64,000 bases of DNA from Candidatus Omnitrophota bacterium (GCA_043805415.1 JAZDHZ010000033.1:153600-217599); one strand, 5' to 3'; numbered from the stretch's first letter, positions 23,953 to 50,325 are shown. The notes: a model not told the origin generated them from the letters alone. A program made the numbers and translations.

Positions 23953-26900
23953 ATGAGTTTATCACAAAATACAAACCCAAAATTAAAATTCCATGAAGTG
24001 AGAATTGTTGAGGCATCAGCCGGTTCAGGAAAAACTTACGAGCTGGCAAAACGTTATATTCAGCTGCTGCTTAACTCCGATTTTTCCCTTGGGCAAAGCC
24101 CTTTGCGCAATATTCTGGCAATTACGTTTACCCACAAGGCAACAAGAGAAATGCGTGAACGCATCCTGGAACAGCTTAAGAAAATCGCTTTAGGTTCATT
24201 TTCTAACACTGGTGAAAAAAAAGATTTATTACAAACTTTAGGCAGGGACGAAGATATCGCAAGTAAACAAGCATTCAAAGTGCTTGATTGCATAATGGCT
24301 AATTACAATTTTTTTCAAATAAAAAATATTGATAGTTTTATTAATCTGATCTTATCCGGCTGTGCTTCAGAATTGAATCTATCAGCAAATTTTAAAATTA
24401 AAGAGAATTATTCCGCGTACGTAGCTTACGCGCTTGATGAATGTATTGATAATGCTTGTAAAGAGGAAAAGGCAGCAAAGGTTTTTCAGAATTTTATAAG
24501 TCAATATCTGTTTCTGGAAAATCGGACAAGTTGGTTACCGAAAAAAGATATATTTGATATTATTAGCGGTATGTTTAGCCAAAGTAATATTTATGGGGGT
24601 AAATTTCAGAAATTTAGTATCGCGGACAATGAACTGATAACCTTAAAGCAAAAAATTATTAAAATTCTTGGGCAAATAAACAAGCAGCCTCCGGAGGGAA
24701 TAAATAAGCAGTTTGTTAATACTACTTTAGCTAATTTTCTTAGCAAGAATAAACATGGTTTTAATATTTCTGATCTGGATAAAAAATCTTTCATGCTGGA
24801 TAATTTGCCGATGAATAAAGGTTTTGAAGCGCCAGAGGAATTAGCGTCGCTGTGGCATGAGTTTAGGATTCTGATCGTTGAGTTAAGTGAAAAAGAGGCA
24901 TTGTCGCTATTTAATTGCTATATTGATATATTTGACGATGTCTATAAATATTTTCGTAATTACGCAACGCGTGATGATGTGGTTTTTATGGAGGAATTAA
25001 ACAAACAAGCTTACTTTTTATTTAAAGAAGCTCATTTGAGTGTTCCGGAGCTTTATTATCGATTAGCTAGCAGATTCAAGCATTTTTTGATTGATGAATT
25101 TCAAGATACAAGCAAATTACAGTGGAAAAATTTATTTCTTATGGTTGAAGACGCGCTATCTTATGGAGGATCACTTTTTTATGTGGGAGATAGAAAACAG
25201 GCAATTTATCGGTTTCGGGGCGGGAATGTTGAGTTATTTGATACTGTAAAAACTGAGTTTAAACATTTTAATATAAATGATAATCTGGTATTAAGAACAA
25301 ACTATCGCTCGGAAAAAGAGATTATTAAATTTAATAATCAGATATTTTTGCGAGAAAATCTAAAACGGTTTTTTAATGAACAGCAGGAAGGTGAAAAAAA
25401 TATTCTCAGAGTTTTATCAGTCAATGAAATTAATGATATTGTGAGCGTTTTTAAGGATTCCCAACAGCTGGATAGGCCGAATAAACCAAATGGCTATGTA
25501 AATGTTGATTACATCGAATATCAGGATCAAGAAAATCGCGATGAGCTTATAAAAGAGTATTTGTTTGCCGCCATGGATAATTTAGAAAAACGTTTTCCTT
25601 TAAAAGCGATCGCTATTTTATGCCGAAGTAATCGCGAAATCGAGTTAGTTACTGGCTGGTTATCGGAGAAGAAAGTAAATGTTGAATCAGAACGCACCCT
25701 AAATATACTCAATAACTCGCTTATTCGGGAACTTATAGCTTTTTTGCGATTTTTAAACTCACCGATTAATACGATCGAATTTTCCGCGTTTATTTTAGGA
25801 GATATCTTTTTAAAAGCCAGCGGCAGGTCAAGAGAAGAAATCGCTGATTTTATTTTTCAATTCAACCGAAAAGACAAGCAGCAAGAATTTAATTCAGGAT
25901 ATTTGTATCGGGCTTTTAGAAAGCAGTATCCTCTGCTTTGGGATGAGAATATTGCTGATTTTTTTAAAAGTGTCGGATTTGTGTCATTATATGAGTTAAT
26001 TGTAAGTATTATTGATAAGTTTAAAATATTTGATAATTTTGGCGCGTATCAAGGGTTTTTTATGCGGTTTCTTGAACTGGTTAAGGAACAAGAAGAAGAA
26101 AATCCGGATATAAGTTTATTTCTCAGCTATCTTAACTTAGCCCCGGAAGCTCATTTGTATGTTAATTTCTCTGATGAAAACGCGGTTAAGGTCATGACGA
26201 TACATAAAGCAAAGGGGTTGGGATTTCCAGTGGTTATTGTTCCCTTTCTGGAAATGAAAATAAGGGAATTAGGCACGCAGATAAAAGGAGCAAAAGCCCC
26301 GTATGTTGTTTATGAGCCTGATATCGGAGATAGCAGTGAAACAGCTTTTAGCCTTTTAAGACTGGATACGAAATACGCAAAGTTTTCCAGCAAAATTAAG
26401 GAGATTTATCGCAAGGAGTATATAAAGGCTTTGATTGATGAGTTAAATGTTATTTATGTCACCTTTACCCGCGCTCAAAATGAACTCTATATTTTTGTGC
26501 CTTATACGAGCTCCAAATCATCTGAATCTAATAATGCGGCATTCTTTCTTATTCCAAAGGAGATAACCTCAAGAGGCACGCAGCTAGATTGTAAAACTGA
26601 GCCTGAAGCGCTTCCCGCGAATATACCGATATCTTTGCCGCGATATCAAAACTGGGTATCTTTGCTAAAGGAAGAATTTACAGAGGTAAGCCAGGTGAGT
26701 AATCGAGATAATATAAAACAAGGAAAAATTTTGCATTCAATGCTTAGTAAAATAGGCAATTTGAATGTCTTGTCACTGGAAGCGGTTTTGACAGAAACGC
26801 GGCAGGAGATTGAACAAGAATACTCAGGGCTGGATAATATCGATACCTATATCAAAATATTAAAGAAGGTATTAACCGCGCAGGAAACAAAGCAGTTTTT

Positions 26901-27156
26901 TTATTTAGACCAGGACGCGAAAATTTACCTGGAAAAAGAGTTTGTTGATCAACAGGGAATAACAAAACGAATCGACCGATTAATTATCAATAAGCAAGAA
27001 GCGATTATTATTGATTATAAAAGTTCTCCGGAAAATAAGGAGAAAAGTTTTGAACAGGTTCTAACTTATAAAAATATTTTACGCGCAGTTTATCCGGATA
27101 AAAAAGTCAGCGCCTATTTGCTATACATGGATCAGGCTAAAGCAGAGCGGGCTTAA
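23953..27156 (+). CDS. addA: AddA-like ATP-dependent helicase-nuclease (UvrD/Rep SF1 helicase plus C-terminal RecB-family nuclease)
   Basis: EASAGSGKT Walker A, FLIDEFQDTS motif II, GDRKQAIYRFRGG motif III, C-terminal IDRL...IIDYKSS PD-(D/E)XK. Confidence 0.7.
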   Translation: MSLSQNTNPKLKFHEVRIVEASAGSGKTYELAKRYIQLLLNSDFSLGQSPLRNILAITFTHKATREMRERILEQLKKIALGSFSNTGEKKDLLQTLGRDEDIASKQAFKVLDCIMANYNFFQIKNIDSFINLILSGCASELNLSANFKIKENYSAYVAYALDECIDNACKEEKAAKVFQNFISQYLFLENRTSWLPKKDIFDIISGMFSQSNIYGGKFQKFSIADNELITLKQKIIKILGQINKQPPEGINKQFVNTTLANFLSKNKHGFNISDLDKKSFMLDNLPMNKGFEAPEELASLWHEFRILIVELSEKEALSLFNCYIDIFDDVYKYFRNYATRDDVVFMEELNKQAYFLFKEAHLSVPELYYRLASRFKHFLIDEFQDTSKLQWKNLFLMVEDALSYGGSLFYVGDRKQAIYRFRGGNVELFDTVKTEFKHFNINDNLVLRTNYRSEKEIIKFNNQIFLRENLKRFFNEQQEGEKNILRVLSVNEINDIVSVFKDSQQLDRPNKPNGYVNVDYIEYQDQENRDELIKEYLFAAMDNLEKRFPLKAIAILCRSNREIELVTGWLSEKKVNVESERTLNILNNSLIRELIAFLRFLNSPINTIEFSAFILGDIFLKASGRSREEIADFIFQFNRKDKQQEFNSGYLYRAFRKQYPLLWDENIADFFKSVGFVSLYELIVSIIDKFKIFDNFGAYQGFFMRFLELVKEQEEENPDISLFLSYLNLAPEAHLYVNFSDENAVKVMTIHKAKGLGFPVVIVPFLEMKIRELGTQIKGAKAPYVVYEPDIGDSSETAFSLLRLDTKYAKFSSKIKEIYRKEYIKALIDELNVIYVTFTRAQNELYIFVPYTSSKSSESNNAAFFLIPKEITSRGTQLDCKTEPEALPANIPISLPRYQNWVSLLKEEFTEVSQVSNRDNIKQGKILHSMLSKIGNLNVLSLEAVLTETRQEIEQEYSGLDNIDTYIKILKKVLTAQETKQFFYLDQDAKIYLEKEFVDQQGITKRIDRLIINKQEAIIIDYKSSPENKEKSFEQVLTYKNILRAVYPDKKVSAYLLYMDQAKAERA

Positions 27157-27194: not shown

Positions 27195-27701
27195 ATGAAA
27201 CTTATGCTGCGAATAATCAGAATGTTAATAGTAATAATCGCGATTTCTGGTTGTGCGAAATCCGAACCTGGGCTTAGGATTCTTGGCGAAGATGTATCAA
27301 TGGCGTTGAAAACTAAAAATATTGAAGCTTATCTTAATCTTTGCGTGACGATTAAGGATAAGAAATACTTAATTAATTCGTCGGAGTTAACCTTTGATGA
27401 AAAAAGAGCGCAAACAGCTTTACTCAGCACAACTAAGCGTGATTTGGGCAGAGCCAGAGAAGACCGGAGCGCGAATTTTAATGATATCTCTTGGGTGAAA
27501 GGATGGGATAGGGCGATTGTGCAAAAAGTTGTTTTGGGAAAGCGGATGAATCTGTCCGGGGGGATCATGTGTTATGAAAACATTATTGTCAAATTTAGGA
27601 AAAAAACATTGCCGGATTTAAAAATCGGAAAAGTCGTAAAAGTCCAGGGAATATGGAAGATAATGGATGATCATGCCCTTAGCTTTATGTCAAGGATATG
27701 A
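27195..27701 (+). CDS. lipoprotein, unknown function
   Basis: Signal peptide with lipobox IAISGC; no other motifs. Confidence 0.4.
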   Translation: MKLMLRIIRMLIVIIAISGCAKSEPGLRILGEDVSMALKTKNIEAYLNLCVTIKDKKYLINSSELTFDEKRAQTALLSTTKRDLGRAREDRSANFNDISWVKGWDRAIVQKVVLGKRMNLSGGIMCYENIIVKFRKKTLPDLKIGKVVKVQGIWKIMDDHALSFMSRI

Positions 27702-27733: not shown

Positions 27734-30568
27734 ATGCGAAAAATCGAAACATATCATTTTAAAGATGATTTTATCAAAAAACTAGCCGAATATCTAAAAG
27801 CTGATTTTAACGCGAACAATGATTTGAGTAGAACGGCCATAGTTTTTGGAGGTAAGCGTCCGGCATTGTTTTTAAAAAAAGCATTAGCGGATATCTATAA
27901 TAATAGTTTTATTCCGCCGAGGTTTTTTTCAATCAATGAATTTATGCAGTATTTAGCAGCGAAAAATAAAAGAATCAGCAATATTCCTGAGCTAGAAGCA
28001 TATTTTTCTATATATTCATTGGCAAAAGCCCAAGTTCCTAATATCTTAAAATCGTATCAAAGTTTTTCGCAATTTATGCCGTGGGCCAGAGAGATAGTTT
28101 CTTTTATTGACCAATTAGATTTAGAGGATATCTCCAAACAAAGCTTGATGAATATAGAAGAGAACGCGGAAATTGGCTATGAGGTTCCGCTTGCCTTTAA
28201 TAAATTGCTGGAAAATATCGTTATGCTTCGAGACCTTTATCACGCGCAAATGAAAAAAGAAGGTAAGTATTCGCGGGGGCTTATTTATCTGAGTGCCGCG
28301 GATAATTGCCGGAATGTGGATTTGGGAGAATTTGACAAAATCTTATTTTGTAATTTTTTTGATTTGCATAAAACCGAAAAACAGGTCATCAAACATTATT
28401 ATGATCAGGATAAAGCAGTTTTATTTTTCCAGAAAGACAATAAACCCTGGGGAAAGTTTGATGAATTATCTGTTTATTTTCAAGCTGATATCATCCCTGA
28501 AACTTCAGACGATGAAAATAGCAATTTAAAATTATACGCGGGTTTTGACACTCATTCTCAGGTGGGGATAATCAGAGAAATTTTAAATACGATAAAAATA
28601 AAAAATGAAAGTACAGTTATTGTTTTACCTCAGGCCGAAAGCCTTATTCCGCTTTTGTCCGAAATATCATCTTCTTGCCCAGAGTTTAATGTGTCGATGG
28701 GCTATCCTTTAAGGCGCAGTACTGTTTATAATTTAGTGGACATGATTAATCGCGCCCAAAAAACCAGGAAAAAAAATCAATACTATACAAAGGATTATCT
28801 TGCTTTGCTAATGCATCCGCTTGTGAAAAATATGCTGATCGCTGAAGATTCAACTGTTACGCGTGTGCTTGTGCATAAGATTGAAGAAATGCTTTCTGGT
28901 GCGCAGGAATCAGAGATCGCGGGTAGTCTTTTTGTCAGCCTGGATGCTATTATCAAGATGGATAATTTGCATGAAAATGTTTCAGAGCAGCTTAGAAGCA
29001 TGTCAATTTTTGTTAGTCCTGATCAGATAAAACGCGTATTGAATCTTTTACATGAATATGCTTTTATAATCTGGGAAAAAATCAGGACTCTGGCTGATTT
29101 TTCAGAGGCTGTAGACAAGTTTATGGATCTGCTGATAGCTAAAAGCCTAATAGCTATGTATCCTTTGAACCTGAAAATGGTTGAGAAAATAATCAGTTTA
29201 AGCGATCAATTCCGGAATAAGGCAATCAAGGAAGAGCATTTTAGCTCACTGGAAATATTTAAAATTTTTGATGATTTACTTAAGAAGGAAAAGATCGCTT
29301 TCTCGGGCGCGCCTTTAAAAGGTTTACAAATCCTTGGTCTTTTTGAAACGCGGGCTTTAAGTTTTGAAAACGTTATTATTATGGATGTGAATGAATCTGT
29401 TCTGCCGAGACTTAGTACGAATGAGCCGCTTGTGCCAAGGGCAGTATTGATTACTTTGGGATTGGACAGGCTTGAAGAAGAAGAGAGCATTCAACGCTAT
29501 CAGTTTATGCGGCTGATTAAATCCGCTAAAAATGTGCATTTAGTTTACAATGACAGCGCGGATAAACAAAAAAGCCGCTTTATTGAGGAAATAATCTGGG
29601 AACAAGAGAAAAAAATGAAAAAAATAAGTACGGACAATGTTCCGAGAGCGACTTTTAATTGTGATGTAATGATTAAACTGGGTAATGCTAAAAAGAATAG
29701 TAAAATTAAAGAGTTTTTAGATAATTTTACTTTTTCTGCTTCCAGTTTAAATTTGTATCTAAAATGTCCGCTGCAGTTTTACTATAAGTATATTTTAGGC
29801 TTAAGTGAAAAAGAAGATTTGCTTGATGAACTAGAAAGTAAAGAAGTGGGGACATTTATCCATGAATTATTAGAAGACGCATTTTTAAAATTTATCGATA
29901 AGCCGTTAAAAATTGATCTGTTTTTCCGAAAAAGATTTTTTATCGAATTTGATAAACGTTTTGATCAAGAGTTTAAACAGAGAATGAAATCCGACGCGTT
30001 TATGATTAAGCAGATCATGCGTTTTCGTCTTGAGAAATTTCTGGATAATGAGGCAACCAGACAAGTCCAAAGCATTGCCGGATTAGAAACTGATATAAAA
30101 AAAGAGATTAAATCAGGAAAAACTAAAGAACGAAAAATCAGGTTTAAATGCCGGATTGATCGGATCGATCGGATTGATAATAATAAGCTACAGGTTTTGG
30201 ACTACAAGACAGGCAGTAGTGATTCTGTGCCAGCGAGCTTAAAAACTCTGCAAAAAGCACTGGAAACTCCTGAGCGGAAAACAATTCGGAAAGCGATTAA
30301 ATCCTTTCAATTGCCATTATATTTATACTGCGTGGAACAAGAGGATAAAGATTCTATAATTACTGCTGGGCTGTATAACCTGAGAACTTTGAAAATTGAT
30401 GAATTCCCTAGACCCAAGGAGTATGAGCAAAAAGACGAAATTATGCAGTGCTGTTTGGATATGCTGGGGTATATCATCGACGAAATCTATGACCTTGATC
30501 AGGTGTTTGAAGCCGATGATTCGGATGATTCCTGCAAGTATTGTCCTTTTGTAAGTTTGTGCGGATAA
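27734..30568 (+). CDS. addB: AddB-like PD-(D/E)XK nuclease subunit with C-terminal Cys cluster
   Basis: No Walker A; RIDRIDRIDNNKLQVLDYKTG nuclease motif; C-terminal CKYCPFVSLCG Fe-S-type cysteines. Confidence 0.65.
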   Translation: MRKIETYHFKDDFIKKLAEYLKADFNANNDLSRTAIVFGGKRPALFLKKALADIYNNSFIPPRFFSINEFMQYLAAKNKRISNIPELEAYFSIYSLAKAQVPNILKSYQSFSQFMPWAREIVSFIDQLDLEDISKQSLMNIEENAEIGYEVPLAFNKLLENIVMLRDLYHAQMKKEGKYSRGLIYLSAADNCRNVDLGEFDKILFCNFFDLHKTEKQVIKHYYDQDKAVLFFQKDNKPWGKFDELSVYFQADIIPETSDDENSNLKLYAGFDTHSQVGIIREILNTIKIKNESTVIVLPQAESLIPLLSEISSSCPEFNVSMGYPLRRSTVYNLVDMINRAQKTRKKNQYYTKDYLALLMHPLVKNMLIAEDSTVTRVLVHKIEEMLSGAQESEIAGSLFVSLDAIIKMDNLHENVSEQLRSMSIFVSPDQIKRVLNLLHEYAFIIWEKIRTLADFSEAVDKFMDLLIAKSLIAMYPLNLKMVEKIISLSDQFRNKAIKEEHFSSLEIFKIFDDLLKKEKIAFSGAPLKGLQILGLFETRALSFENVIIMDVNESVLPRLSTNEPLVPRAVLITLGLDRLEEEESIQRYQFMRLIKSAKNVHLVYNDSADKQKSRFIEEIIWEQEKKMKKISTDNVPRATFNCDVMIKLGNAKKNSKIKEFLDNFTFSASSLNLYLKCPLQFYYKYILGLSEKEDLLDELESKEVGTFIHELLEDAFLKFIDKPLKIDLFFRKRFFIEFDKRFDQEFKQRMKSDAFMIKQIMRFRLEKFLDNEATRQVQSIAGLETDIKKEIKSGKTKERKIRFKCRIDRIDRIDNNKLQVLDYKTGSSDSVPASLKTLQKALETPERKTIRKAIKSFQLPLYLYCVEQEDKDSIITAGLYNLRTLKIDEFPRPKEYEQKDEIMQCCLDMLGYIIDEIYDLDQVFEADDSDDSCKYCPFVSLCG

Positions 30569-30579
30569 ACAGCAGCGAA
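30489..30579 (+). repeat. direct repeat copy 1 (native 3' end of addB); copy 2 at 42681-42770
   Basis: Identical ~90-bp string atgaccttgatcaggtgtttgaagccgatgattcggatgattcctgcaagtattgtccttttgtaagtttgtgcggataaacagcagcgaa seen at both sites. Confidence 0.85.
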
Positions 30580-30639
30580 CAGCGTTTAGGGAAAACAGAT
30601 AGAGAATATAAGGCAGTGAAAAGAAATAAAAACCTGTAG

Positions 30640-30659
30640 GGACAGGTCGTGACCTGTCC
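30640..30659 (+). terminator. hairpin GGACAGGT-CGTG-ACCTGTCC downstream of addB (weak terminator candidate)
   Basis: Perfect 8-bp stem; downstream tract A/T-rich but not a clean U-run. Confidence 0.3.
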
Positions 30660-30984
30660 GATAAAAAATTATTAAAATTTTGAAAAAATTGAAGTAAAAC
30701 CGTTTCCCAACGCTTTCTCTTTAGGGGTTATGGCCTGTGCCGATTATTTGTATGGAGTAAGTATTACAAGTTTCTTTATAAAAAAATAATCTTATAATAT
30801 GCTTTTATTTAGTTGTTAATTGACTGTATTCTAAATATATGCCATAGAACCTAAGCTGTTTTTTATGAAAGTCTTTTAATGAAAAATAATTATTCCTCAG
30901 GTTTTCTTCCAGTAATATTTCTGTTATCTGTTTCTATTTGTTTGCAAAATTTAAAGTTTTTTCTCTTACGAAAAGGAAGGTTTT

Positions 30985-40604: not shown

Positions 40605-40707
40605 TAAAAATAATTGTCAAGATTGGGCAGAAAGATTGAGAGAAGAGTATTATCGATTAGAAAGTGAAAATAATCTTAATCAATGCAAATAGGAGAAATA
40701 AAACAAG

Positions 40708-41556
40708 GTGAAGAAAAAAACAAGTTTAATTATTTTAGTAATCGTTTTAATTTGCTGGATTTTTTTAAAAAATCCTCAAAAAGCTAAGAATATAGAAGGT
40801 GAATTATATTGTGCATTTTCTAATAAAATTTATAAGATAGATTTGGACAGGTTAAAGAGTAATGTTTTATATGAAGAAGAAGGGAGTTTCATCGATCAAA
40901 TAAGTTTTTTTAAGAAAGATGTTTTTATCTTACAGAAAAAAAATAAAGAAATTTACAAGTTTAATATCTTAGAAAAAGATTCTGATTTTATTTGCGAAGG
41001 TAAGAAGCCAATATATGTTAGAGAAGCTAATAGTATTTTTTATTATAATAAAGAGGCTCTTTATAGAAGAAGCTTTGAAAGTAATGTGGAAGAAAAAATA
41101 ACTGATGATATTTATATTTTTGCTCCTAAAGAATTAAAAAGCATTTATTATGATGAACCGCCAGTGCAGATTTCGTCACAAGAAATAGTTTTCTGTAATA
41201 AAGATCAGAAAATAGTAATATATAACTTTGCAAGTAAAGACAAAAGGATTCTAGATTTTAAAGGGTATCATGTTTGGAGTGGTTATGGTGATATGCTTGT
41301 TTGTAAAAAAAATGATAACTTTTATTTGCTTGATATAGTTACCGGAAACATAAATAGGATTAAAATTACTCCGAGATGGAATGTGATTTTTGTGAAGGGT
41401 TATAATTGTTTAATTTATTCTAGCGTAAGATTTTTTTCTTTGTCGGAAGCTGAAGATTTATTTGTTTATTGGATAGAAGAAAAAAAAGAGGAAAAACTTA
41501 TCTCGAATTGTTATGTTTCTAGTGGAATTTATTTAGGGAAGAAAGAGGGGGAATAG
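40708..41556 (+). CDS. hypothetical protein with N-terminal signal/TM anchor (282 aa), island cargo
   Basis: GTG start, AGGAG RBS; MKKKTSLIILVIVLICWIFL anchor; repetitive beta-rich body; no known motifs. Confidence 0.4.
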   Translation: MKKKTSLIILVIVLICWIFLKNPQKAKNIEGELYCAFSNKIYKIDLDRLKSNVLYEEEGSFIDQISFFKKDVFILQKKNKEIYKFNILEKDSDFICEGKKPIYVREANSIFYYNKEALYRRSFESNVEEKITDDIYIFAPKELKSIYYDEPPVQISSQEIVFCNKDQKIVIYNFASKDKRILDFKGYHVWSGYGDMLVCKKNDNFYLLDIVTGNINRIKITPRWNVIFVKGYNCLIYSSVRFFSLSEAEDLFVYWIEEKKEEKLISNCYVSSGIYLGKKEGE

Positions 41557-41581
41557 GGGGAAATCTACGGGACATATAAAA

Positions 41582-41634
41582 GGGTGATAGGGTCAAAAAG
41601 GGTGATAGAAAAAAAGGTGATAGGAAGGTGATAG
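41582..41634 (+). repeat. short tandem repeat array, unit (g)ggtgatag x4, abutting left TIR of transposase element 2
   Basis: Read directly. Confidence 0.8.
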
Positions 41635-41660
41635 GGTCAGACCCGGAAAACGGAAAAGAT

Positions 41661-41689
41661 TGACGAGTTAAGGTTTTTTTAGTATAATT
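41661..41689 (+). promoter_or_regulatory. element-internal promoter TTGACG-17-TATAAT, 5 nt before transposase ATG (near-leaderless)
   Basis: Hexamers read directly. Confidence 0.5.
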
Positions 41690-41694
41690 TAACA

Positions 41695-42642
41695 ATGGCG
41701 CGACCATATAGATTGCAAGGAGAAAATTGTTTTTATCATATCACCAGCAGGGGAGATGATCGCAAGAGAATCTTCATAAGCGATTATGATTTTGAGAAAT
41801 TTTTAGAGTATTTAGAAAAAGCTAAAGAAAAATATAAGTTTAAATTATATGCATACTGCTTGATGTCAAACCACTATCATTTATTTATCGAAACCCTACA
41901 GCCGAATCTATCTAAAATCATGCAATATCTCAATACTGCCTATACAGTATACTATAATAAAAAACGCAAGAAGACAGGGCATTTGTTCCAAGGTAGGTAT
42001 AAATCGATAATGGTGGATGAAGATAGTTATTTTTTAGAACTAACCCGTTATATCCACCTAAATCCCGTACGGGCAAAAATGGTAGAAAGGCCGGGAGAAT
42101 ATAAGTGGTCAAGCTATAAGGGCTATTTAAAAAATAAAACAGATAAATATATAGATTATGACGCGCTGAACGATTATTTGGGAATGGATAGTGCAAGTTA
42201 TAAAGAATTTGTATCAAACTCAATAAATAGGGAAGATAGTTTATTTAAAGAAGTTTATGCGGGATTTTTCCTAGGAGGGAAGGCGTTTATAGAGGAAAAA
42301 CTAGCGGAATTTAGGCCTGAGATAGAGGAAGGGGATTTTGCTCATAAGCGCAAACTTAGATCTGAAATATCAATAGAAGAAATAATCAAAGCAGTAGGTG
42401 CTGTTTTTAAGGAAAATAATAACGAGGTATTAGGAAAAAAGAATAGCCAATCAAATTTAAGGAAAATAGCAATATATTTAGCCCGCAGAATAACGCAATT
42501 AAGTAATAAAGAAATAGGAGCACATTTTAATATTAGCGATTCAGCAGTAGGAAAGGCAGTCCATAGGGTATCAGAGTTATTGCAAGAGGATCAAGGGTTG
42601 AAAAAGAGAACAAATGAACTGTTTTCCGTTTTCCGGGTCTGA
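41695..42642 (+). CDS. IS200/IS605-family Y1 (HUH) transposase fused to a DnaA domain-IV-like HTH (diverged paralogue of 38179-39129)
   Basis: MARPYRLQGEN..YHITSRG...YCLMSNHYHLFIET; C-terminal LRKIAIYLARRITQLSNKEIGAHFNISDSAV; TGA stop inside right TIR. Confidence 0.75.
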   Translation: MARPYRLQGENCFYHITSRGDDRKRIFISDYDFEKFLEYLEKAKEKYKFKLYAYCLMSNHYHLFIETLQPNLSKIMQYLNTAYTVYYNKKRKKTGHLFQGRYKSIMVDEDSYFLELTRYIHLNPVRAKMVERPGEYKWSSYKGYLKNKTDKYIDYDALNDYLGMDSASYKEFVSNSINREDSLFKEVYAGFFLGGKAFIEEKLAEFRPEIEEGDFAHKRKLRSEISIEEIIKAVGAVFKENNNEVLGKKNSQSNLRKIAIYLARRITQLSNKEIGAHFNISDSAVGKAVHRVSELLQEDQGLKKRTNELFSVFRV

Positions 42643-42645
42643 CCC

Positions 42646-42682
42646 TTTTAGAAAATACGGGTCTGACCCTTTTAGAAAATAT
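42646..42682 (+). repeat. subterminal direct repeat (gggtctgacccttttagaaaata x2) outside right TIR of element 2
   Basis: Read directly; the second unit runs straight into the addB 3'-end repeat copy 2. Confidence 0.75.
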
Positions 42683-42770
42683 GACCTTGATCAGGTGTTT
42701 GAAGCCGATGATTCGGATGATTCCTGCAAGTATTGTCCTTTTGTAAGTTTGTGCGGATAAACAGCAGCGA
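42681..42770 (+). repeat. direct repeat copy 2 of the addB 3' end (last 25 codons plus stop); marks the right island boundary
   Basis: Identical to 30489-30579; followed by ~35 bp of degenerate similarity to 30580-30615. Confidence 0.85.
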
Positions 42771-43001
42771 ATAGCGGTTAGCGGATAGCGTTTAGTGGAC
42801 ACAGAGAACAGAAAACAGGTATTTTTTTTAACTCGTAAACACGTTAACTCGTAACTTGTGACTTTGTATGTGTATTAGGTCTATATTTTTCAATAAAACA
42901 GTAGCATCTTGGACAGAAATGTTATATACTAATTGCGTTTATATAAGTTAAGGTCTTTATAGCCTATAAGTTAGGCGTTTTTTAATCATAAGGAGGAGAA
43001 A

Positions 43002-43334
43002 GTGAATTTTGAGTCATTAGCATATGCTCAGCAAGCAACGGGTGGGGTTCCAGCACAAGGTCAGAGTAGTTTTATGGTCCTGCTGCCCATGTATTTAATA
43101 ATTTTCGCGGTATTTTATTTTTTTCTTATTAGACCGCAGCAGAAACAGCAACAGCAAAAACTGAATATGATCGCGCAGTTAAAAAAGAATGATGAAGTAA
43201 TTACTGTCGGTGGTATTCATGGGACGGTGGTTAATGTAAAAGATACCACTGTTGTTTTGAAAGTCGATGACGGGATTAAAATAGAATTTGATAAAACAGC
43301 AGTTATTGCGATTGAAAAATCAAGACAAGGATAG
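43002..43334 (+). CDS. yajC: preprotein translocase subunit YajC
   Basis: TM helix then LKKNDEVITVGGIHGTVVNVKDTTVVLKV YajC signature; AAGGAGGAG RBS, GTG start. Confidence 0.8.
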   Translation: MNFESLAYAQQATGGVPAQGQSSFMVLLPMYLIIFAVFYFFLIRPQQKQQQQKLNMIAQLKKNDEVITVGGIHGTVVNVKDTTVVLKVDDGIKIEFDKTAVIAIEKSRQG

Positions 43335-43378
43335 TTGATTGACTTTTAGGCGACAAGATTAATCTAGGGAGGAAAAGC

Positions 43379-45553
43379 ATGCCGAAGAATTTAAAAACAA
43401 AATTTATACTAATATCATTATTAATGGGTTTTTGTGTATGGGTAATACACCCGCTTAAAGACAAGATAAATCTCGGGCTTGATTTGCAAGGGGGGATGTT
43501 TCTTACTCTCCAGGTAGATATGTCAAAGCTTCCCGCGAATATTAAGCCTGATGTGCGCAATGATATTGTTGATCGGACGATTGAAATCATCAGAAAAAGA
43601 ATTGATCAATTAGGCGTAAAAGAGCCTTCAATATCCCGCCAAGGCGCGGATAGAATTATTGTTCAATTACCTGGGGTAACTGACCGCTCAAGAGCAAGAA
43701 AACTAATTGGCAGAACTGCTCAGCTTGAATTTCGTTTGGTTAGTAATGACGCGAATAAACTAAAAGAGGCATTAGCTGGTCAAATTCCAGTAGGCTATGA
43801 GCTTAAGCAGGATGAAGATGGAAAGAATTTACTTATTGAGATAACCGCGGTAATGACCGGTGACAGCCTGGCAGACGCAGTATTAAGCCGGGATTCATAT
43901 GGGCGTTCCAGTGTCAAACTTGATTTTACTCCTAAAGGCGCTTTATTGTTTTCCAATATTACGGGAGCAAATATAAACCGTCAGTTAGCAGTTGTGCTGG
44001 ATGGAGAAATTTATTCAGCGCCGAATATACGAGAAAGAATATCAGGCGGCAGCGCGGAAATTACGGGAAATTTTAGTGTTGAAGAAGCTAAAGATCTTTC
44101 TACTGTATTGCGTACTGGCGCATTGCCGGCACCGATTATTTTTGGGGAAGAAAGGACTGTCGGCCCTTTGCTTGGTCAGGATTCAATCAAAAGCGGGGTT
44201 AGTGCAACAATAATCGGCGGTATTGCTGTAGTTCTTTTTATGGCGATTTATTACTTTATCGGAGGACTATTAGCAAACATTGCTTTGGTGCTGAATATTT
44301 TGATTGTCCTGGCGGCACTGGTTATTATGAAAGCGACATTAACCTTGCCCGGTATTGCTGGTATTGGCTTGACTATCGGAATGGCTGTGGACGCGAATGT
44401 GCTGATTAATGAGCGGATCCGGGAGGAATTGGCCCAAGGCAAATCAACCCGAACGGCGATTAATAATGGATATGGAAGGGCTTTTCCCGCAATCTTTGAC
44501 TCTAATGTAACTACGATTATTGCTGCCATACTTTTAGTCTGGTTAGGCTCTGGGCCGATTCGCGGGTTTGGGTTAACGCTGATCATCGGTTTGCTGGCAA
44601 GCATGTTTACGTCTATTGTGGTTACCAAGATGCTGATTGATATGATGTCTTTAAAATGGAAAAATCTTCCGCTGAAGATGATGCAGCTTATTCCTTCAAC
44701 CACAATCGATTTTATTAAAATTCGCTGGATATCTTACTCAGTGTCAATTATTTTTCTTATAGCGGGTCTGACTTTCTTTACGCAGAAAGGGGATAATAAT
44801 TACGGGATTGATTTTACCGGAGGGGCAATCCAGGAATTTAAGTTTGATAAACCGATTGAAATGGATGCTCTGCGCGCGGCGATGCATGAGATTGGTTTAG
44901 GGGATGCGCTTATTCAGCAAGATAAAAAAGATCCGACAATTGTTATTTTAAGAACAGGAGAAAATCAGGCGGATAATATAATGGAAGGATTTGCTAAATC
45001 ATTTCCGGATAATAAAGCCGAGGTTTTAAGTATTGATAGTGTTGGTCCGGTGGTTGGTAATTTGCTGAAGAAAAATGCCAGCATGGCATTGTTATTAGCA
45101 ATGCTCGCGATTTGTATTTATATCTGGATTCGATTCCGTGACTTTGTTTATGGAGCAGCTGGAGTTGTGGCTTTGTTCCACGATGTGCTTGTTGCGGTAG
45201 CAGTATGCGCTTTAACCAATAGGCCGATTGATCTGCTGATGGTTACGGCGTTTATGACCATAGCGGGTTATTCAATAAACGATACGGTGGTTATTTTTGA
45301 CCGGATTAGAGAAAATATTAGGCTAAGGAGAAAAACCTCATTTAAAGATATTATTAACATGAGTATAAATCAGACATTGGGCAGAACTGTATGGACAACA
45401 GTAACAACTCTCTGTATCGTTATTTCATTATTTTTCCTAGGCGGAAAGGTATTGCATAATTTTGCTTTTATTATGATGATCGGTTTTGTCTGCGGGATAT
45501 ATTCAACTATTTTTATCGCCAGTCCATTGGTTTATGCTTGGGAGAAAAAATAA
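43379..45553 (+). CDS. secDF: fused protein-export membrane protein SecDF
   Basis: SecD N-terminus (LGLDLQGGMF...), two 6-TM SSD-type modules in one 724-aa ORF. Confidence 0.85.
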   Translation: MPKNLKTKFILISLLMGFCVWVIHPLKDKINLGLDLQGGMFLTLQVDMSKLPANIKPDVRNDIVDRTIEIIRKRIDQLGVKEPSISRQGADRIIVQLPGVTDRSRARKLIGRTAQLEFRLVSNDANKLKEALAGQIPVGYELKQDEDGKNLLIEITAVMTGDSLADAVLSRDSYGRSSVKLDFTPKGALLFSNITGANINRQLAVVLDGEIYSAPNIRERISGGSAEITGNFSVEEAKDLSTVLRTGALPAPIIFGEERTVGPLLGQDSIKSGVSATIIGGIAVVLFMAIYYFIGGLLANIALVLNILIVLAALVIMKATLTLPGIAGIGLTIGMAVDANVLINERIREELAQGKSTRTAINNGYGRAFPAIFDSNVTTIIAAILLVWLGSGPIRGFGLTLIIGLLASMFTSIVVTKMLIDMMSLKWKNLPLKMMQLIPSTTIDFIKIRWISYSVSIIFLIAGLTFFTQKGDNNYGIDFTGGAIQEFKFDKPIEMDALRAAMHEIGLGDALIQQDKKDPTIVILRTGENQADNIMEGFAKSFPDNKAEVLSIDSVGPVVGNLLKKNASMALLLAMLAICIYIWIRFRDFVYGAAGVVALFHDVLVAVAVCALTNRPIDLLMVTAFMTIAGYSINDTVVIFDRIRENIRLRRKTSFKDIINMSINQTLGRTVWTTVTTLCIVISLFFLGGKVLHNFAFIMMIGFVCGIYSTIFIASPLVYAWEKK

Positions 45554-48723: not shown

Positions 48724-49454
48724 GCGAAACAGTTCAACAGCTAAAAACCCGGCTTGAGTTTGAGGAATATTTCTCAGAAGATTATTTACCAGGGGCTAAG
48801 TCGCTGGTTGCCGCCCAAGAACTTTTAGCCGCTACTGTAGAGATAAACCCTAAGCCTGAAGTCTCGATAGCTGAGGACAGTAAAAAAATGCTTGCAAATC
48901 CACTCTATCAAAAAGTTCAGACATGTGTTTTATGTGATTTGCATAAAACCCGAACTAATGTTGTGTTTGGCGAGGGCAGCTTAGATGCGGAACTTGTTTT
49001 TATTGGCGAGGCTCCGGGAAGAGATGAGGATCTGCAGGCCAAGCCTTTTGTCGGCTTAGCGGGCGGACTTTTAACGAAAATTATTAACGCGATGAAAATG
49101 AACCGCGCGGATGTTTTTATTACAAACGTGCTGAGATGCCGGCCTCCGCATAACCGGAATCCTTTGCCTGAGGAAGTTATTTATTGCAAACCTTATCTGA
49201 TTGAACTTTTAAACATTATTAAACCAAAAGTTATTTGTACTTTGGGAAAATTTGCCACACATGCTTTGCTTGATGAAACAAGTCCAATATCTCAGTTAAG
49301 AGGAAAACTTTATGATTTTAATGGTATGAAAGTTATACCGACATATCATCCGGCATATCTTTTAAGAAATCCAGAAGATAAGAAACTTGTTTGGGATGAT
49401 ATGAAAAAAATTCTTAATGTTTTAAAAGCAGATGAAGCTAGAGAATTATATTGA
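48690..49454 (+). CDS. uracil-DNA glycosylase, family 4 (Fe-S type)
   Basis: CVLCDLHKTRTNVVFGEGSLDAELVFIGEAPGRDED...NVLRCRPPHNRNP; AGAGGAG RBS before 48690; an internal ATG at 48888 would give a 188-aa core. Confidence 0.8.
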   Translation: MDSAGIFSRQLSETVQQLKTRLEFEEYFSEDYLPGAKSLVAAQELLAATVEINPKPEVSIAEDSKKMLANPLYQKVQTCVLCDLHKTRTNVVFGEGSLDAELVFIGEAPGRDEDLQAKPFVGLAGGLLTKIINAMKMNRADVFITNVLRCRPPHNRNPLPEEVIYCKPYLIELLNIIKPKVICTLGKFATHALLDETSPISQLRGKLYDFNGMKVIPTYHPAYLLRNPEDKKLVWDDMKKILNVLKADEARELY

Positions 49455-50325
49455 TGAATTTTTAGATTACTTGTCTTTGGAAAGAGGCCTTTCCAAAAAC
49501 ACAATTTCATCCTATCGCCGCGATCTTAATAAATTTGCCGCTTTTGCTTTGGTTAATGATGTGGCTAATGTTATGATTCCTAGCCGGGATGACTTTTTAA
49601 ATTATATTTATTCGCTTAAAGATGCTAACTTAAAATCAAGTTCGATAGCGAGAAATATAGTAGCTTTAAAAGTGTTTTATCGCTATCTTGTAAGTCAGCG
49701 CTATATAATGCAAGATCCTACTGAACTTTTAGAGTCTCCAAAGCTGTGGAAGTATTTGCCTGAGGTACTGTCAATCGCGGAAGTAGAAAATTTTCTTCAG
49801 GTTATTCGCGGCGCAAAAGTAAAACATTTAAGAGACAAGGCTTGTTTTGAGATATTATACGCAACCGGGATGCGGGTTTCAGAAGTGGTTAATTTACAAC
49901 TAAGTGATATTGATATGTCCTTGGGGATTTTAAGATGTATTGGAAAGGGGCAAAAAGAAAGAATAGTTCCTATAGGCAGTCTCGCGAGACAAGCACTTAC
50001 CGAGCATCTAGAGCAAGGCCGGCCGCGATTAGTTAAAAAGCAAGATTCTAATCATATTTTTTTGTCTAAAAATGGAACCGGAATTTCGCGGCAAATGATT
50101 TGGAAGCAAATTCAGCAATATGCTTTATTGGCAAATATTAATAAGCATATATCACCCCATACATTAAGGCATTCTTTTGCCACTCATTTGCTTGAAAAGG
50201 GAGCTGATTTACGCATAGTTCAGGAACTTCTAGGGCATAGTAATATTGCTACAACACAGTTATACACTCATCTGAACAAAGATAGACTTAAATCTATCCA
50301 TCATAAATTCCACCCGCGGCCTTGA
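49432..50325 (+). CDS. tyrosine site-specific recombinase XerC/XerD family
   Basis: LSLERGLSKNTISSYRRDL N-terminal domain; catalytic RHSFATHLL...LGHSNIATTQLYTH. Confidence 0.8.
   Translation: MKLENYIDEFLDYLSLERGLSKNTISSYRRDLNKFAAFALVNDVANVMIPSRDDFLNYIYSLKDANLKSSSIARNIVALKVFYRYLVSQRYIMQDPTELLESPKLWKYLPEVLSIAEVENFLQVIRGAKVKHLRDKACFEILYATGMRVSEVVNLQLSDIDMSLGILRCIGKGQKERIVPIGSLARQALTEHLEQGRPRLVKKQDSNHIFLSKNGTGISRQMIWKQIQQYALLANINKHISPHTLRHSFATHLLEKGADLRIVQELLGHSNIATTQLYTHLNKDRLKSIHHKFHPRP

What the first reader, a model, noticed from the sequence alone, without database searches (positions are those of the whole stretch)
30489..42770. ~12-kb accessory island (RHS toxin modules plus Y1 transposase elements) bracketed by an ~90-bp direct repeat of the addB 3' end
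The last ~90 bp of the AddB-like gene (30489-30579) recur verbatim at 42681-42770. They are followed by ~35 bp of degenerate similarity to 30580-30615. Everything between is accessory: the giant rhs, an immunity gene, orphan rhs cassettes, two TIR-flanked transposase elements, a solo element end and a hypothetical gene. A target gene's 3' end regenerated on one side of the cargo is the classic footprint of site-specific island integration, or of a recombination-generated duplication. This has not been described for addB. The copy-2 boundary sits immediately after the second gggtctgacc...agaaaatat subterminal repeat of transposase element 2. That suggests the element end and the island end are mechanistically linked. 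No integrase is inside the island; the only tyrosine recombinase (49432-50325) is 6.7 kb away and looks like housekeeping Xer.
Basis: seen in the sequence. Interest (0 to 1): 0.78.

Follow-up and report, generated by a model that had tools for sequence, protein, structure and literature searches.

The report
Rhs toxin insertion duplicating addB's end
In an uncultured Omnitrophota bacterium, about 12 kb of toxin genes and small transposon-like elements sits between two normally adjacent housekeeping genes and is bracketed by a 92-base duplicate of the first gene's end; this looks like a one-off recombination accident rather than a new kind of site-specific mobile island.

Summary
Window 30488-30579 recurs exactly at 42680-42771 (92 nt; 102 nt at 98%). 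Copy 1 is the last 26 codons plus stop of an AddB-like nuclease gene. Copy 2 is an orphan fragment, not part of a paralogue.

The DNA between the copies is a real insertion. In the closest relatives (AddB 74% identical) addB is followed directly by yajC-secDF, down to the same XerD gene.

The cargo is one large Rhs toxin gene, a candidate immunity gene, orphan Rhs pieces, a hypothetical gene, two complete "TIRtrons" and one solo TIRtron end. A TIRtron is a known element type: a Y1 HUH transposase (TIRYT) with a DnaA-like HTH, flanked by inverted repeats.

Integrase-driven site-specific integration is not supported. The island has no recombinase or RNA gene, and none of 87 other Omnitrophota addB loci carries a second copy of its addB end.

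Copy 2 with its downstream DNA is the native allele. Copy 1's tail is a variant allele. TIRtron 2 appears to sit as a simple, duplication-free insertion at GAAATCTA^TGACC of addB.

My best reading is one homologous plus illegitimate recombination event tied to that TIRtron. This is an ordinary kind of feature with an interesting junction.

The parts
23953..27156 (+). AddA-like helicase-nuclease gene (left flank, native)
   Evidence: Pfam UvrD-helicase 3.2e-37, UvrD_C and PDDEXK_1. Syntenic in L001 and L004.
27734..30568 (+). AddB-like PD-(D/E)XK nuclease gene, intact
   Evidence: Pfam PDDEXK_1 1.4e-30. NCBIfam addB_alphas hit well below cut-off. 100% match to an NCBI Omnitrophota MAG protein, P0001. 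C934, C937 and C943 are invariant in 23 homologues.
30488..30579 (+). Repeat copy 1: last 26 codons plus stop of addB and 11 nt beyond. Homology to copy 2 probably extends to 30482 on the left and about 30590-30610 on the right.
30580..30984 (+). Left end of the inserted DNA: variant spacer tail (CAGCGTTTAG...), one GTAG-headed hairpin at 30636-30659, and the AT-rich region upstream of rhs
   Evidence: No homology to relatives' addB-yajC spacers beyond the first ~20 nt and a similarly placed REP-like hairpin in L001.
30985..37587 (+). Main Rhs/YD-repeat polymorphic toxin gene (2200 aa) with PKD, FG-GAP, YD shell and a C-terminal tip after DPDGL
   Evidence: Pfam RHS_repeat 6.7e-66, FG-GAP_3 and PKD. 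Translation. The N-terminal half has no close homologue; best full-coverage hit is 31% identity.
37602..37982 (+). Candidate immunity gene (126 aa)
   Evidence: Assigned by position only. No Pfam or NCBIfam hit.
37978..38054 (+). 77-nt Rhs core fragment, 94% identical to 39352-39428 in the orphan and 83% to the main gene. It abuts the left end of TIRtron 1.
   Evidence: (D3).
38047..39190 (+). TIRtron 1: TIRYT gene 38179-39129, core TIRs 38112-38138 and 39111-39137, and inverted arrays of 4-5 subterminal units (xxCAACRG-GGTC) at both ends
   Evidence: Pfam Y1_Tnp plus Bac_DnaA_C. NCBIfam REP_Tyr_transpos 83.3 bits, cut-off 80..
39187..40113 (+). Orphan Rhs core-end plus an alternative toxin tip (85% identical to main-gene 36673-37208, then divergent after DPEGL)
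   Evidence: (D1).
40516..40606 (+). Solo right end of a third, truncated TIRtron (last codons of a TIRYT gene, core, and 2 subterminal units)
   Evidence: (D7, 91% to 39069-39142).
40708..41556 (+). Hypothetical gene (282 aa, N-terminal hydrophobic segment)
   Evidence: No Pfam or NCBIfam hit.
41560..41567 (+). GAAATCTA: 8 nt identical to addB 30482-30489, the bases immediately upstream of where copy 2 resumes. Putative left half of the addB target of TIRtron 2.
   Evidence: About 0.003-0.03 by chance, estimated post hoc.
41568..42680 (+). TIRtron 2: TIRYT gene 41695-42642, core TIRs 41633-41657 and 42622-42646 (25 nt, 100%), left array of GGTGATAG units, right array of 2 x (GGGTCTGACCC TTTTAGAAAATAY). 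End coordinates are uncertain by about 3 nt.
   Evidence: (I1).
42680..42771 (+). Repeat copy 2: orphan addB 3' fragment, continuous with the native spacer
   Evidence: Its continuation CAGCAGCGAATAGCG... matches the L008 spacer.
42772..43001 (+). Native addB-yajC spacer / yajC upstream region
   Evidence: Aligns with L004, L008 and L001 (scores 189, 171, 141).
43002..45553 (+). yajC and secDF (right flank, native)
   Evidence: Pfam YajC 2.6e-29. Synteny.
49432..50325 (+). XerD-type housekeeping recombinase (not part of the island)
   Evidence: NCBIfam recomb_XerD 367 bits, cut-off 329.6. Same position in L001 and L004.

Best explanation
The 12.2-kb block is a single-lineage, recombination-generated insertion into the ancestral addB-yajC junction. 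It is not the product of a dedicated integrase.

Shown:
- Relatives have addB directly followed by yajC.
- Copy 2 plus its downstream DNA is the native allele of the addB end and spacer.
- Copy 1 restores a complete addB but continues into a variant spacer tail and then foreign-looking Rhs DNA.
- The cargo holds three TIRtron copies or remnants.

Inferred:
- TIRtron 2 (about 41568-42680) sits as a simple, duplication-free insertion between GAAATCTA and TGACC of an addB 3' end. That is how HUH Y1 (IS200/IS605-type) elements insert.
- On its own, this insertion would remove the last 26 residues of AddB, including three invariant cysteines.
- DNA from a conspecific whose intact addB was followed by an Rhs cluster then recombined in. 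The left side was homologous, within addAB. The right side was illegitimate, through the 8-nt microhomology GAAATCTA at the TIRtron's left junction. This is homology-facilitated illegitimate recombination, or equivalently a Campbell-type crossover of a circle carrying the addB end.
- The result is an intact addB, 11 kb of Rhs cargo, then the TIRtron and the displaced original addB end.

If the 8-mer is coincidental, the same class of event applies, with the illegitimate joint at the TIRtron's right end (microhomology TAT).
For: - Empty site in four related species with full flank synteny.
- Copy 2's continuation matches relatives' spacers: L008 reads AGCAGCGAATAGCG, and the L004 and L008 yajC upstream regions align.
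- Copy 1's tail lacks 14 nt present in copy 2 and carries C for T. Copy 2 therefore cannot derive from copy 1, and a simple tandem duplication is excluded.
- No integrase, tRNA or Rfam hit in 29-44 kb.
- No duplicated addB end in 87 other loci, with the window as positive control.
- Tetranucleotide outlier in the rhs-rich middle of the island, and Rhs without close relatives.
- GAAATCTA at 41560-41567 equals addB 30482-30489, immediately 5' of TGACC where copy 2 resumes. Only 6 near-matches occur on this strand in 64 kb.
- The T2 termini share an outer inverted motif, AAAAGGGT(G/C)A.
- In L088 the outer subterminal units belong to the inserted DNA.
- 49 TIRtrons show no target duplication, consistent with Y1-type insertion.
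- An identical TIRYT occurs in three different contexts, and 1-kb contigs break at TIR ends, which shows mobility.
- The invariant C-terminal cysteines of AddB lie inside the duplicated segment.
Against: - No conspecific genome or read data exist, so neither donor nor recipient allele is observed. The species was not found in the metagenome scan.
- The left-flank evidence for a simple TIRtron insertion is only 8 nt and was noticed post hoc.
- TIRtron termini are not experimentally defined. In L183 versus L184 the contexts diverge right at the core TIR, which would place the T2 left end 65 nt further in.
- The model needs a donor that already had an Rhs cluster next to addB, which pushes the origin back one step.
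- 92 nt of perfect identity between donor and recipient alleles next to a divergent tail needs either very close relatives plus fast slippage in the TAGCG repeats, or later gene conversion.
Confidence: 0.5

Rival explanations
1. Site-specific integration of a genomic island at the addB 3' end. The 92-bp repeats are attL and attR, and the island carries a replacement 3' end, as phages e14 and 21 do at icd. The integrase has been lost or acts in trans, as in a CIME-like integrase-less element. TIRtron 2 inserted later into the redundant copy.
For: A direct repeat that regenerates the target gene's 3' end, a clean empty site in relatives, and atypical composition in the rhs-rich middle of the island. 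The variant tail on the island side of copy 1 is what an island-borne att arm would look like.
Against: No integrase or excisionase in the island. The only recombinase within 20 kb is a syntenic XerD. None of 87 related addB loci has a duplicated 3' end. The cargo has no transfer, replication or phage genes. It requires the TIRtron to lie 8 nt from the repeat edge by coincidence.
Confidence: 0.18
2. TIRYT-catalysed mobilisation. The Y1 HUH transposase of TIRtron 2 cut its right end and a pseudo-end in addB (GAAATCTAT|GACC). That site resembles both its own left flank, GAAATCTAC|GGGAC, and its inter-unit junction, GAAAATAC|GGGTC. It thereby moved the whole 12.2-kb unit (30488/30491 to 42680) as a circle. 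The circle re-inserted 3' of the same target in a naive addB, IS200/IS605-style or IS91-like one-ended.
For: The boundary of copy 2 coincides exactly with the TIRtron right end, and the addB site resembles sequences at TIRtron 2 junctions. A second TIRtron (T1) is also flanked by non-contiguous, overlapping Rhs sequence, 77 nt at 94%.
Against: 49 other TIRtrons show no flank duplications or captured flanks above the permutation null, and six well-flanked relatives show only TIRs. No Y1 element is known to use an end 11 kb away. The motif similarity is short and post hoc.
Confidence: 0.12
3. Assembly ambiguity. The true state is an empty chromosome (addB-yajC) plus a separate 12.2-kb circular molecule carrying the addB end, or two strains merged into one path through the 92-nt repeat.
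For: The source is a metagenome-assembled genome. With k below 92, the integrated form and the 'empty plus circle' form give the same de Bruijn graph. In the sister species, one AddB protein sits in two different downstream contexts in two assemblies, L001 and L002.
Against: The junctions themselves must exist in reads, because 42679|42680 shares only TAT with addB. A 12-kb circle without replication genes would not persist. A circle would still require the same recombination event. Related MAG contigs are k141 assemblies, which span 92 nt (titles).
Confidence: 0.07

Closest known systems
Integrative elements that regenerate a target gene's 3' end (phage 21 / e14 at icd; integrase-less CIME-type islands). 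From my own knowledge.
   Same: Cargo bracketed by a direct repeat that is the 3' end of a housekeeping gene. The gene stays intact and the displaced original end remains as a fragment. The island-side copy has a variant tail.
   Different: No integrase, no excisionase and no recurrence of the site in 87 related genomes. The repeat edge coincides with a transposon-like element end.
Homology-facilitated illegitimate recombination (PMC3240628; also described in Acinetobacter and Streptococcus, from my own knowledge)
   Same: One homologous arm plus one microhomology joint inserts foreign DNA next to the anchor and can duplicate recipient sequence. 8-nt (or 3-nt) microhomology lies at the candidate joint.
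   Different: HFIR is documented for short experimental inserts. Here 11-12 kb would be involved, and neither donor nor recipient is observed.
TIRtrons / TIRYT: Y1 HUH transposases of TnpA-REP subclass 2.1.2 with a Bac_DnaA_C-like C-terminus (PMC3733652, PMC6006769)
   Same: 315-316 aa protein with Y1_Tnp plus Bac_DnaA_C. 25-27 nt TIRs carrying AGGGTCAG (published motif GGGGWSAS). No REP hairpins.
   Different: The published descriptions I read (keyword passages of PMC3733652 and PMC6006769) mention only the TIRs. Here, and in relatives, the ends also carry arrays of short subterminal tandem units. There is also a possible before/after pair for one insertion (addB copy 1 against copy 2).
Rhs/YD polymorphic toxin loci with orphan toxin-immunity modules (from my own knowledge of E. 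coli, Salmonella and Serratia Rhs loci)
   Same: Large core gene, DPxGL boundary, variable tip, small downstream ORF, and downstream orphan core-end plus an alternative tip sharing 85-90% identical core sequence.
   Different: The orphans are interrupted by and associated with TIRtrons rather than ISAs1/H-rpt. The N-terminal half (PKD plus FG-GAP) has no close relatives.

Membership tests
Integrase-mediated site-specific genomic island | Insertion relative to an empty site in related genomes | tested here: met
   addB is directly followed by yajC-secDF in L001/L009, L004/L005, L008 and L018.
Integrase-mediated site-specific genomic island | Flanking direct repeats (attL/attR) that include the target gene end | tested here: met
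   92 nt exact, 102 nt at 98%.
Integrase-mediated site-specific genomic island | Tyrosine or serine recombinase gene in the island, usually next to one att | tested here: not met
   All ORFs of at least 50-60 aa in 30.5-42.8 kb were listed and the largest were scanned. The only enzymes found are Y1 HUH transposases. XerD, 6.7 kb away, is syntenic in relatives.
Integrase-mediated site-specific genomic island | The same att site used repeatedly in other genomes | tested here: not met
   0 of 87 addB loci carry a second copy of their addB end within 10 kb. Islands longer than 10 kb would be missed.
Integrase-mediated site-specific genomic island | Excision to a circle and restoration of the empty site | not testable with these tools
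   Needs reads or an experiment.
TIRtron / TIRYT (TnpA-REP subclass 2.1.2) | Y1 HUH transposase core related to RAYTs | tested here: met
   Pfam Y1_Tnp 1.7e-14 and 1.9e-16. NCBIfam REP_Tyr_transpos 83.3 and 84.2 bits, cut-off 80. NHYHL is visible in the translations.
TIRtron / TIRYT (TnpA-REP subclass 2.1.2) | C-terminal Bac_DnaA_C / HTH extension | tested here: met
   Pfam Bac_DnaA_C 7.3e-11 and 4.4e-10. Described for subclass 2.1.2 in PMC6006769.
TIRtron / TIRYT (TnpA-REP subclass 2.1.2) | Gene flanked by terminal inverted repeats with the GGGGWSAS motif rather than by REP hairpins | tested here: met
   25-nt (100%) and 27-nt (93%) TIRs starting with AGGGTCAG. The same core is present in 50+ relatives. 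The motif comes from PMC3733652.
Rhs/YD polymorphic toxin locus | Large YD-repeat core protein | tested here: met
   RHS_repeat 6.7e-66 with 6 stretches, plus a weak DUF6531 hit.
Rhs/YD polymorphic toxin locus | Conserved DPxGL boundary followed by a variable toxin tip, and orphan tips sharing core sequence | tested here: met
   VDPDGL (main gene) and IDPEGL (orphan) in the translations. 537 nt at 85% between 36673-37208 and 39190-39725, then divergence.
Rhs/YD polymorphic toxin locus | Cognate immunity gene directly downstream | tested here: inconclusive
   Small ORFs at 37602-37982 and 40139-40345 are in the right place but have no family hits.
Homology-facilitated illegitimate recombination product | Illegitimate joint at a 3-10 nt microhomology next to a homologous anchor | tested here: inconclusive
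   Candidate joints are GAAATCTA (8 nt, 41560-41567 against 30482-30489) or TAT (42680-42682). The anchor cannot be seen without donor or recipient genomes.
IS200/IS605-type simple insertion (for TIRtron 2) | Flanks contiguous in the target with no target-site duplication | tested here: inconclusive
   The flanks are GAAATCTA on the left and TGACC plus 87 nt on the right, which are contiguous in addB copy 1. Left-side support is only 8 nt. 49 relatives show no TSD.

The most novel reading that the evidence does not exclude
Copy 1 and copy 2 of the addB end form an in-genome 'before and after' pair for a TIRtron insertion. This would be the first sequence-level evidence I know of for how TIRYT elements move: insertion between GAAATCTA and TGACC, no target duplication, and termini lying outside the published TIR and including the subterminal arrays. 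On this reading, a TIRtron knocked out addB, and the gene was rescued by a recombination event that dragged in an 11-kb Rhs toxin cluster. TIRtron ends would then act as recombination joints that help assemble toxin islands. T1 and the solo end in the same block, and the TIRYT next to a DUF6531 fragment in L092-L096, point the same way.
Probability: 0.3. Interest if true: 0.5.

Novelty: new member of a known kind. Interest (0 to 1): 0.3.

Why it matters
As an island, this is routine. Rhs toxin clusters and IS-like elements commonly sit in variable regions, and flanking duplications from recombination are well known.

Two things give it modest value. First, it is a clean, well-bounded example of accessory-gene gain in Omnitrophota, a phylum known almost only from MAGs, with the ancestral state documented in four relatives. 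Second, the junction gives a testable handle on TIRtrons. That family has thousands of members (6793 hits at E <= 1e-20), yet the two papers I consulted (PMC3733652, PMC6006769) report no demonstration of their mobility, termini or target choice.

If the addB junction is a true TIRtron insertion site, it predicts the cleavage and target sequence for biochemical tests.

Tried and rejected
- **Exact AddB look-up and single-protein locus scan:** nothing close found. The source species is not in genome contigs.
- **Degenerate-pattern scan of JGI metagenomes for the addB end:** 0 hits, so there is no conspecific empty or filled site.
- **Rhs N-terminal half search, to trace a donor locus:** no close homologue and not even a self hit. 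The donor is untraceable.
- **Tandem-duplication (MMBIR) model:** rejected. Copy 2 is followed by the native spacer rather than the start of the cargo, and it contains 14 nt that copy 1 lacks.
- **Long target-site duplication made by TIRtrons in general:** rejected. 49 elements show flank matches no better than the permuted null, and six close relatives show only TIRs. The 18-nt flank repeat in L098 is not significant after multiple testing.
- **The hairpin at 30636-30659 as a member of a REP family:** only one copy in the window, so left as a single REP-like or terminator hairpin.
- **Direct repeats in L092 (4749-4795 / 8721-8768 plus a solo left TIR):** examined, but the geometry differs from the window and no conclusion was drawn.
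- **Empty site for the L088 TIRtron in the window:** only the left flank is homologous.
- **tRNA, tmRNA or Rfam feature as an integration target:** none.
- **Literature search for addB as an integration site:** none of the listed papers mentions addB.

Full report
**1. Observation**

The repeat is as described. Window 30488-30579 is identical to 42680-42771 (92 nt). Gap-free identity stays at 98% over 102 nt.

Copy 1 is the last 26 codons, the stop codon and 11 further bases of ORF 27734-30568. That ORF is a 944-aa PD-(D/E)XK protein (Pfam PDDEXK_1, 1.4e-30). It lies downstream of a UvrD/PD-(D/E)XK AddA-like gene and a conserved 168-aa ORF. NCBIfam AddB models hit it only weakly, so 'AddB-like' is the right label.

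The protein is 100% identical to an NCBI 'Candidatus Omnitrophota' MAG protein on a 234-kb contig. The next relatives are 74% identical.

tblastn of AddB against the window finds only the full gene and residues 919-944 at 42680-42757.

**2. The block is an insertion**

In the closest relatives the gene order is addA, a 167-aa ORF, addB, yajC, secDF, rnf, rnf, DUF502, MGDG synthase, UDG, XerD. This is exactly the order of the window's flanks, with only 224-556 nt between addB and yajC (L001/L009, L004/L005, L008; also L018 at 56% identity).

The DNA after copy 2 (42772-43001) aligns with the addB-yajC spacers of L004, L008 and L001. The first bases after the stop (CAGCAGCGAATAGCG...) match L008. 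Copy 2 plus its downstream DNA is therefore the native allele.

After the identity block, copy 1 reads CAGCGTTTAG. This corresponds to copy 2's TAGCGTTTAG once 14 nt of TAGCG-type repeats are skipped. It then runs into DNA with no counterpart in relatives, apart from a similarly placed GTAG-headed hairpin in L001.

The duplicated native segment is thus about 115-135 nt. Its left edge is sharp and its right edge is fuzzy.

The rhs-rich middle of the island has atypical tetranucleotide usage: r = 0.84-0.87 to the flanks in 4-kb windows spanning 32-40 kb, against at least 0.94 elsewhere. The two edge windows (30-34 kb and 38-42 kb) give 0.92-0.93. GC content is not different.

**3. Contents**

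- 30985-37587 is a 2200-aa Rhs protein with PKD, FG-GAP and YD repeats (RHS_repeat 6.7e-66). It has a DPDGL boundary and a tip with no family hit.
- 37602-37982 is a candidate immunity ORF.
- 37978-38054 is a 77-nt Rhs core fragment.
- 39187-40113 is an orphan core-end with a different tip.
- 40708-41556 is a hypothetical gene.

The two 'Y1 transposase elements' encode 315-316-aa proteins with Y1_Tnp plus Bac_DnaA_C. They pass the NCBIfam REP-associated tyrosine transposase cut-off. They are flanked by 25-27-nt inverted repeats beginning AGGGTCAG.

This is the TIRYT/'TIRtron' class of Di Nocera et al. (PMC3733652; TIR motif GGGGWSAS). It is subclass 2.1.2 of Quentin et al. (PMC6006769).

The family is very large, with 6793 hits at E <= 1e-20. 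Many members lie on 1-3-kb contigs that break at the TIRs. One identical protein occurs in three different contexts. The elements are therefore multicopy and mobile.

A third, truncated copy survives as a solo right end at 40516-40606.

Outside the core TIR, each end carries an array of short tandem units. In L088 these outer units belong to the inserted DNA.

**4. Testing the site-specific-integration reading**

- There is no integrase, excisionase, tRNA, tmRNA or Rfam feature in or at the block.
- The only recombinase nearby is a XerD equivalog at the same syntenic position as in relatives.
- I fetched 80 further Omnitrophota addB loci with 10-kb flanks and searched each, plus seven loci obtained earlier, for a second copy of its own addB end. 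None has one, while the same search recovers the window's repeat.
- The listed results of a literature search did not give addB as an integration target.

The footprint is compatible with site-specific integration, but its defining enzyme and its recurrence are both missing.

**5. What the junctions say**

A plain tandem duplication is excluded. Copy 2 is followed by the native spacer rather than the start of the cargo, and it holds 14 nt that copy 1 lacks. The structure therefore needs two alleles of the addB end: a native one (copy 2) and a variant one attached to the Rhs DNA (copy 1).

The inner junction is notable. Copy 2 begins right after TIRtron 2's right end: ...GGGTCTGACCC TTTTAGAAAATAC GGGTCTGACCC TTTTAGAAAATA|TGACC....

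On the other side of TIRtron 2 lies GAAATCTA (41560-41567), in the ~25 nt between the hypothetical gene's stop and the element's left arrays. These are the same 8 nt that precede TGACC in intact addB (30482-30489).

Only six near-matches to the 10-mer occur on this strand in 64 kb. Chance placement there is roughly 0.003-0.03, with the caveat that I noticed it after the fact.

Read this way, TIRtron 2 (about 41568-42680) is a simple insertion between GAAATCTA and TGACC of an addB 3' end, with no target duplication. This matches the behaviour of HUH Y1 elements (established knowledge of IS200/IS605). It also matches the absence of flank repeats in 49 other TIRtrons.

The T2 termini also share an outer inverted motif, AAAAGGGT(G/C)A.

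Such an insertion would remove AddB residues 919-944, including the invariant C934, C937 and C943.

**6. Most likely history (inferred)**

1. A TIRtron inserted into the addB end.
2. DNA from a conspecific, carrying an intact addB followed by an Rhs cluster, recombined in.
3. The left side was homologous. The right side was illegitimate, through the GAAATCTA microhomology at the TIRtron's left junction.

This is homology-facilitated illegitimate recombination as defined in PMC3240628. Formally, it is equivalent to a single crossover with a circle carrying the addB end.

The event restored addB and left the order: intact addB, 11 kb of cargo, TIRtron 2, the displaced addB end, yajC.

If the 8-mer is coincidental, the same class of event holds, with the illegitimate joint at the TIRtron's right end (TAT).

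Alternatives I cannot exclude:
- The duplication arose first, possibly through an integrase acting in trans, and the TIRtron later landed in the redundant copy.
- The TIRYT itself mobilised the 12.2-kb unit using a pseudo-end in addB.
- The assembler threaded an empty chromosome and a separate circle through the 92-nt repeat.

TIRtron 1 also has non-contiguous, overlapping Rhs flanks (77 nt at 94%), and the third copy is truncated. TIRtron ends have therefore been rearrangement joints more than once in this block.

**7. Comparison with known systems, and verdict**

The block resembles 3'-end-regenerating integrative elements in outcome. It fails the membership tests for an integrase and for site recurrence.

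The transposase elements are members of a described class, and the toxin genes form an ordinary Rhs array with orphan tips. Overall this is a new member of known kinds.

The most novel point that remains possible is the use of the addB copies as a before/after pair that defines TIRtron termini and target. It is worth a modest follow-up with reads, the rest of the MAG, or biochemistry. Interest: 0.3.

Noticed in passing
L001:12830-13030 vs L002:12830-13020: In the sister species, the same AddB protein (P0002) and about 190 nt downstream are identical in an NCBI MAG and an ENA assembly. The contigs then diverge completely right after an inverted pair of GTAG-headed REP-like hairpins: yajC-secDF follows in L001, and radical SAM / desulfoferrodoxin genes follow in L002. 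This is either a real rearrangement hotspot just downstream of addB or a chimeric assembly.
   Followed up: partly
window 38047-38138, 39111-39190, 40570-40606, 41579-41657, 42622-42682; L101:7887-7965 and 8925-8990; L092:5922-5963 and 6928-6975: TIRtron ends carry arrays of 2-5 short tandem units outside the core TIR. Examples are xxCAACRG-GGTC, GGTGATAG and GACCCCGTT..., and in L101 the whole left TIR plus promoter is duplicated. The unit sequence differs between elements, and the arrays are sometimes inverted-symmetric. The passages I read in the two TIRYT papers (keyword searches only) do not mention them.
   Followed up: partly
L092-L096 (TIRYT at 6001-6948 of L092) and L101:8001-11878: Other TIRtrons also sit in accessory or toxin contexts. 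One lies directly after a DUF6531 (Rhs-associated) fragment among small ORFs and an rve_3 transposase. Another lies beside AbiEii/DUF6088 and Polbeta-HepT modules, with Metallophos genes on both sides.
   Followed up: no
L183, L184, L185: One identical TIRYT protein occurs in three different flanking contexts. The left flanks read GAGAAAATACA|GGGTCAG and GGGAAAATCCA|GGGTCAG. These are similar to each other and to the AGAAAATAC|GGGTC unit at the right end of window TIRtron 2. This may be a target preference or a fast-evolving outer end.
   Followed up: partly
window 36337-36399 and 37211-37303: There are in-frame tandem repeats inside the Rhs gene. One is 3 x 21 nt (LSLAYNP). The other is 2 x 48 nt just after the DPDGL boundary (LQSLNVFFIDIAGLG / LQALNVLFVDIAGLG).
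   Followed up: no
window 27195-27701: A 168-aa ORF with no Pfam or NCBIfam hit lies between the addA-like and addB-like genes. It is conserved at the same position in L001 and L004 but absent in L006.
   Followed up: no
window 42598-42760 (frame of copy 2): Reading back from the orphan addB fragment gives an open frame: MNCFPFSGSDPFRKYGSDPFRKY-DLDQVFEADDSDDSCKYCPFVSLCG. It starts inside the 3' end of the TIRYT 2 gene and would fuse TIRtron-end repeats to the AddB C-terminal cysteine motif. It is probably meaningless.
   Followed up: no
window 30985-37587: Searching the protein database with the N-terminal 1200 aa of the Rhs protein returned no 100% self match, although AddB and TIRYT 2 from the same contig are present. 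The gene may be uncalled, split or marked as a pseudogene in the source annotation.
   Followed up: no
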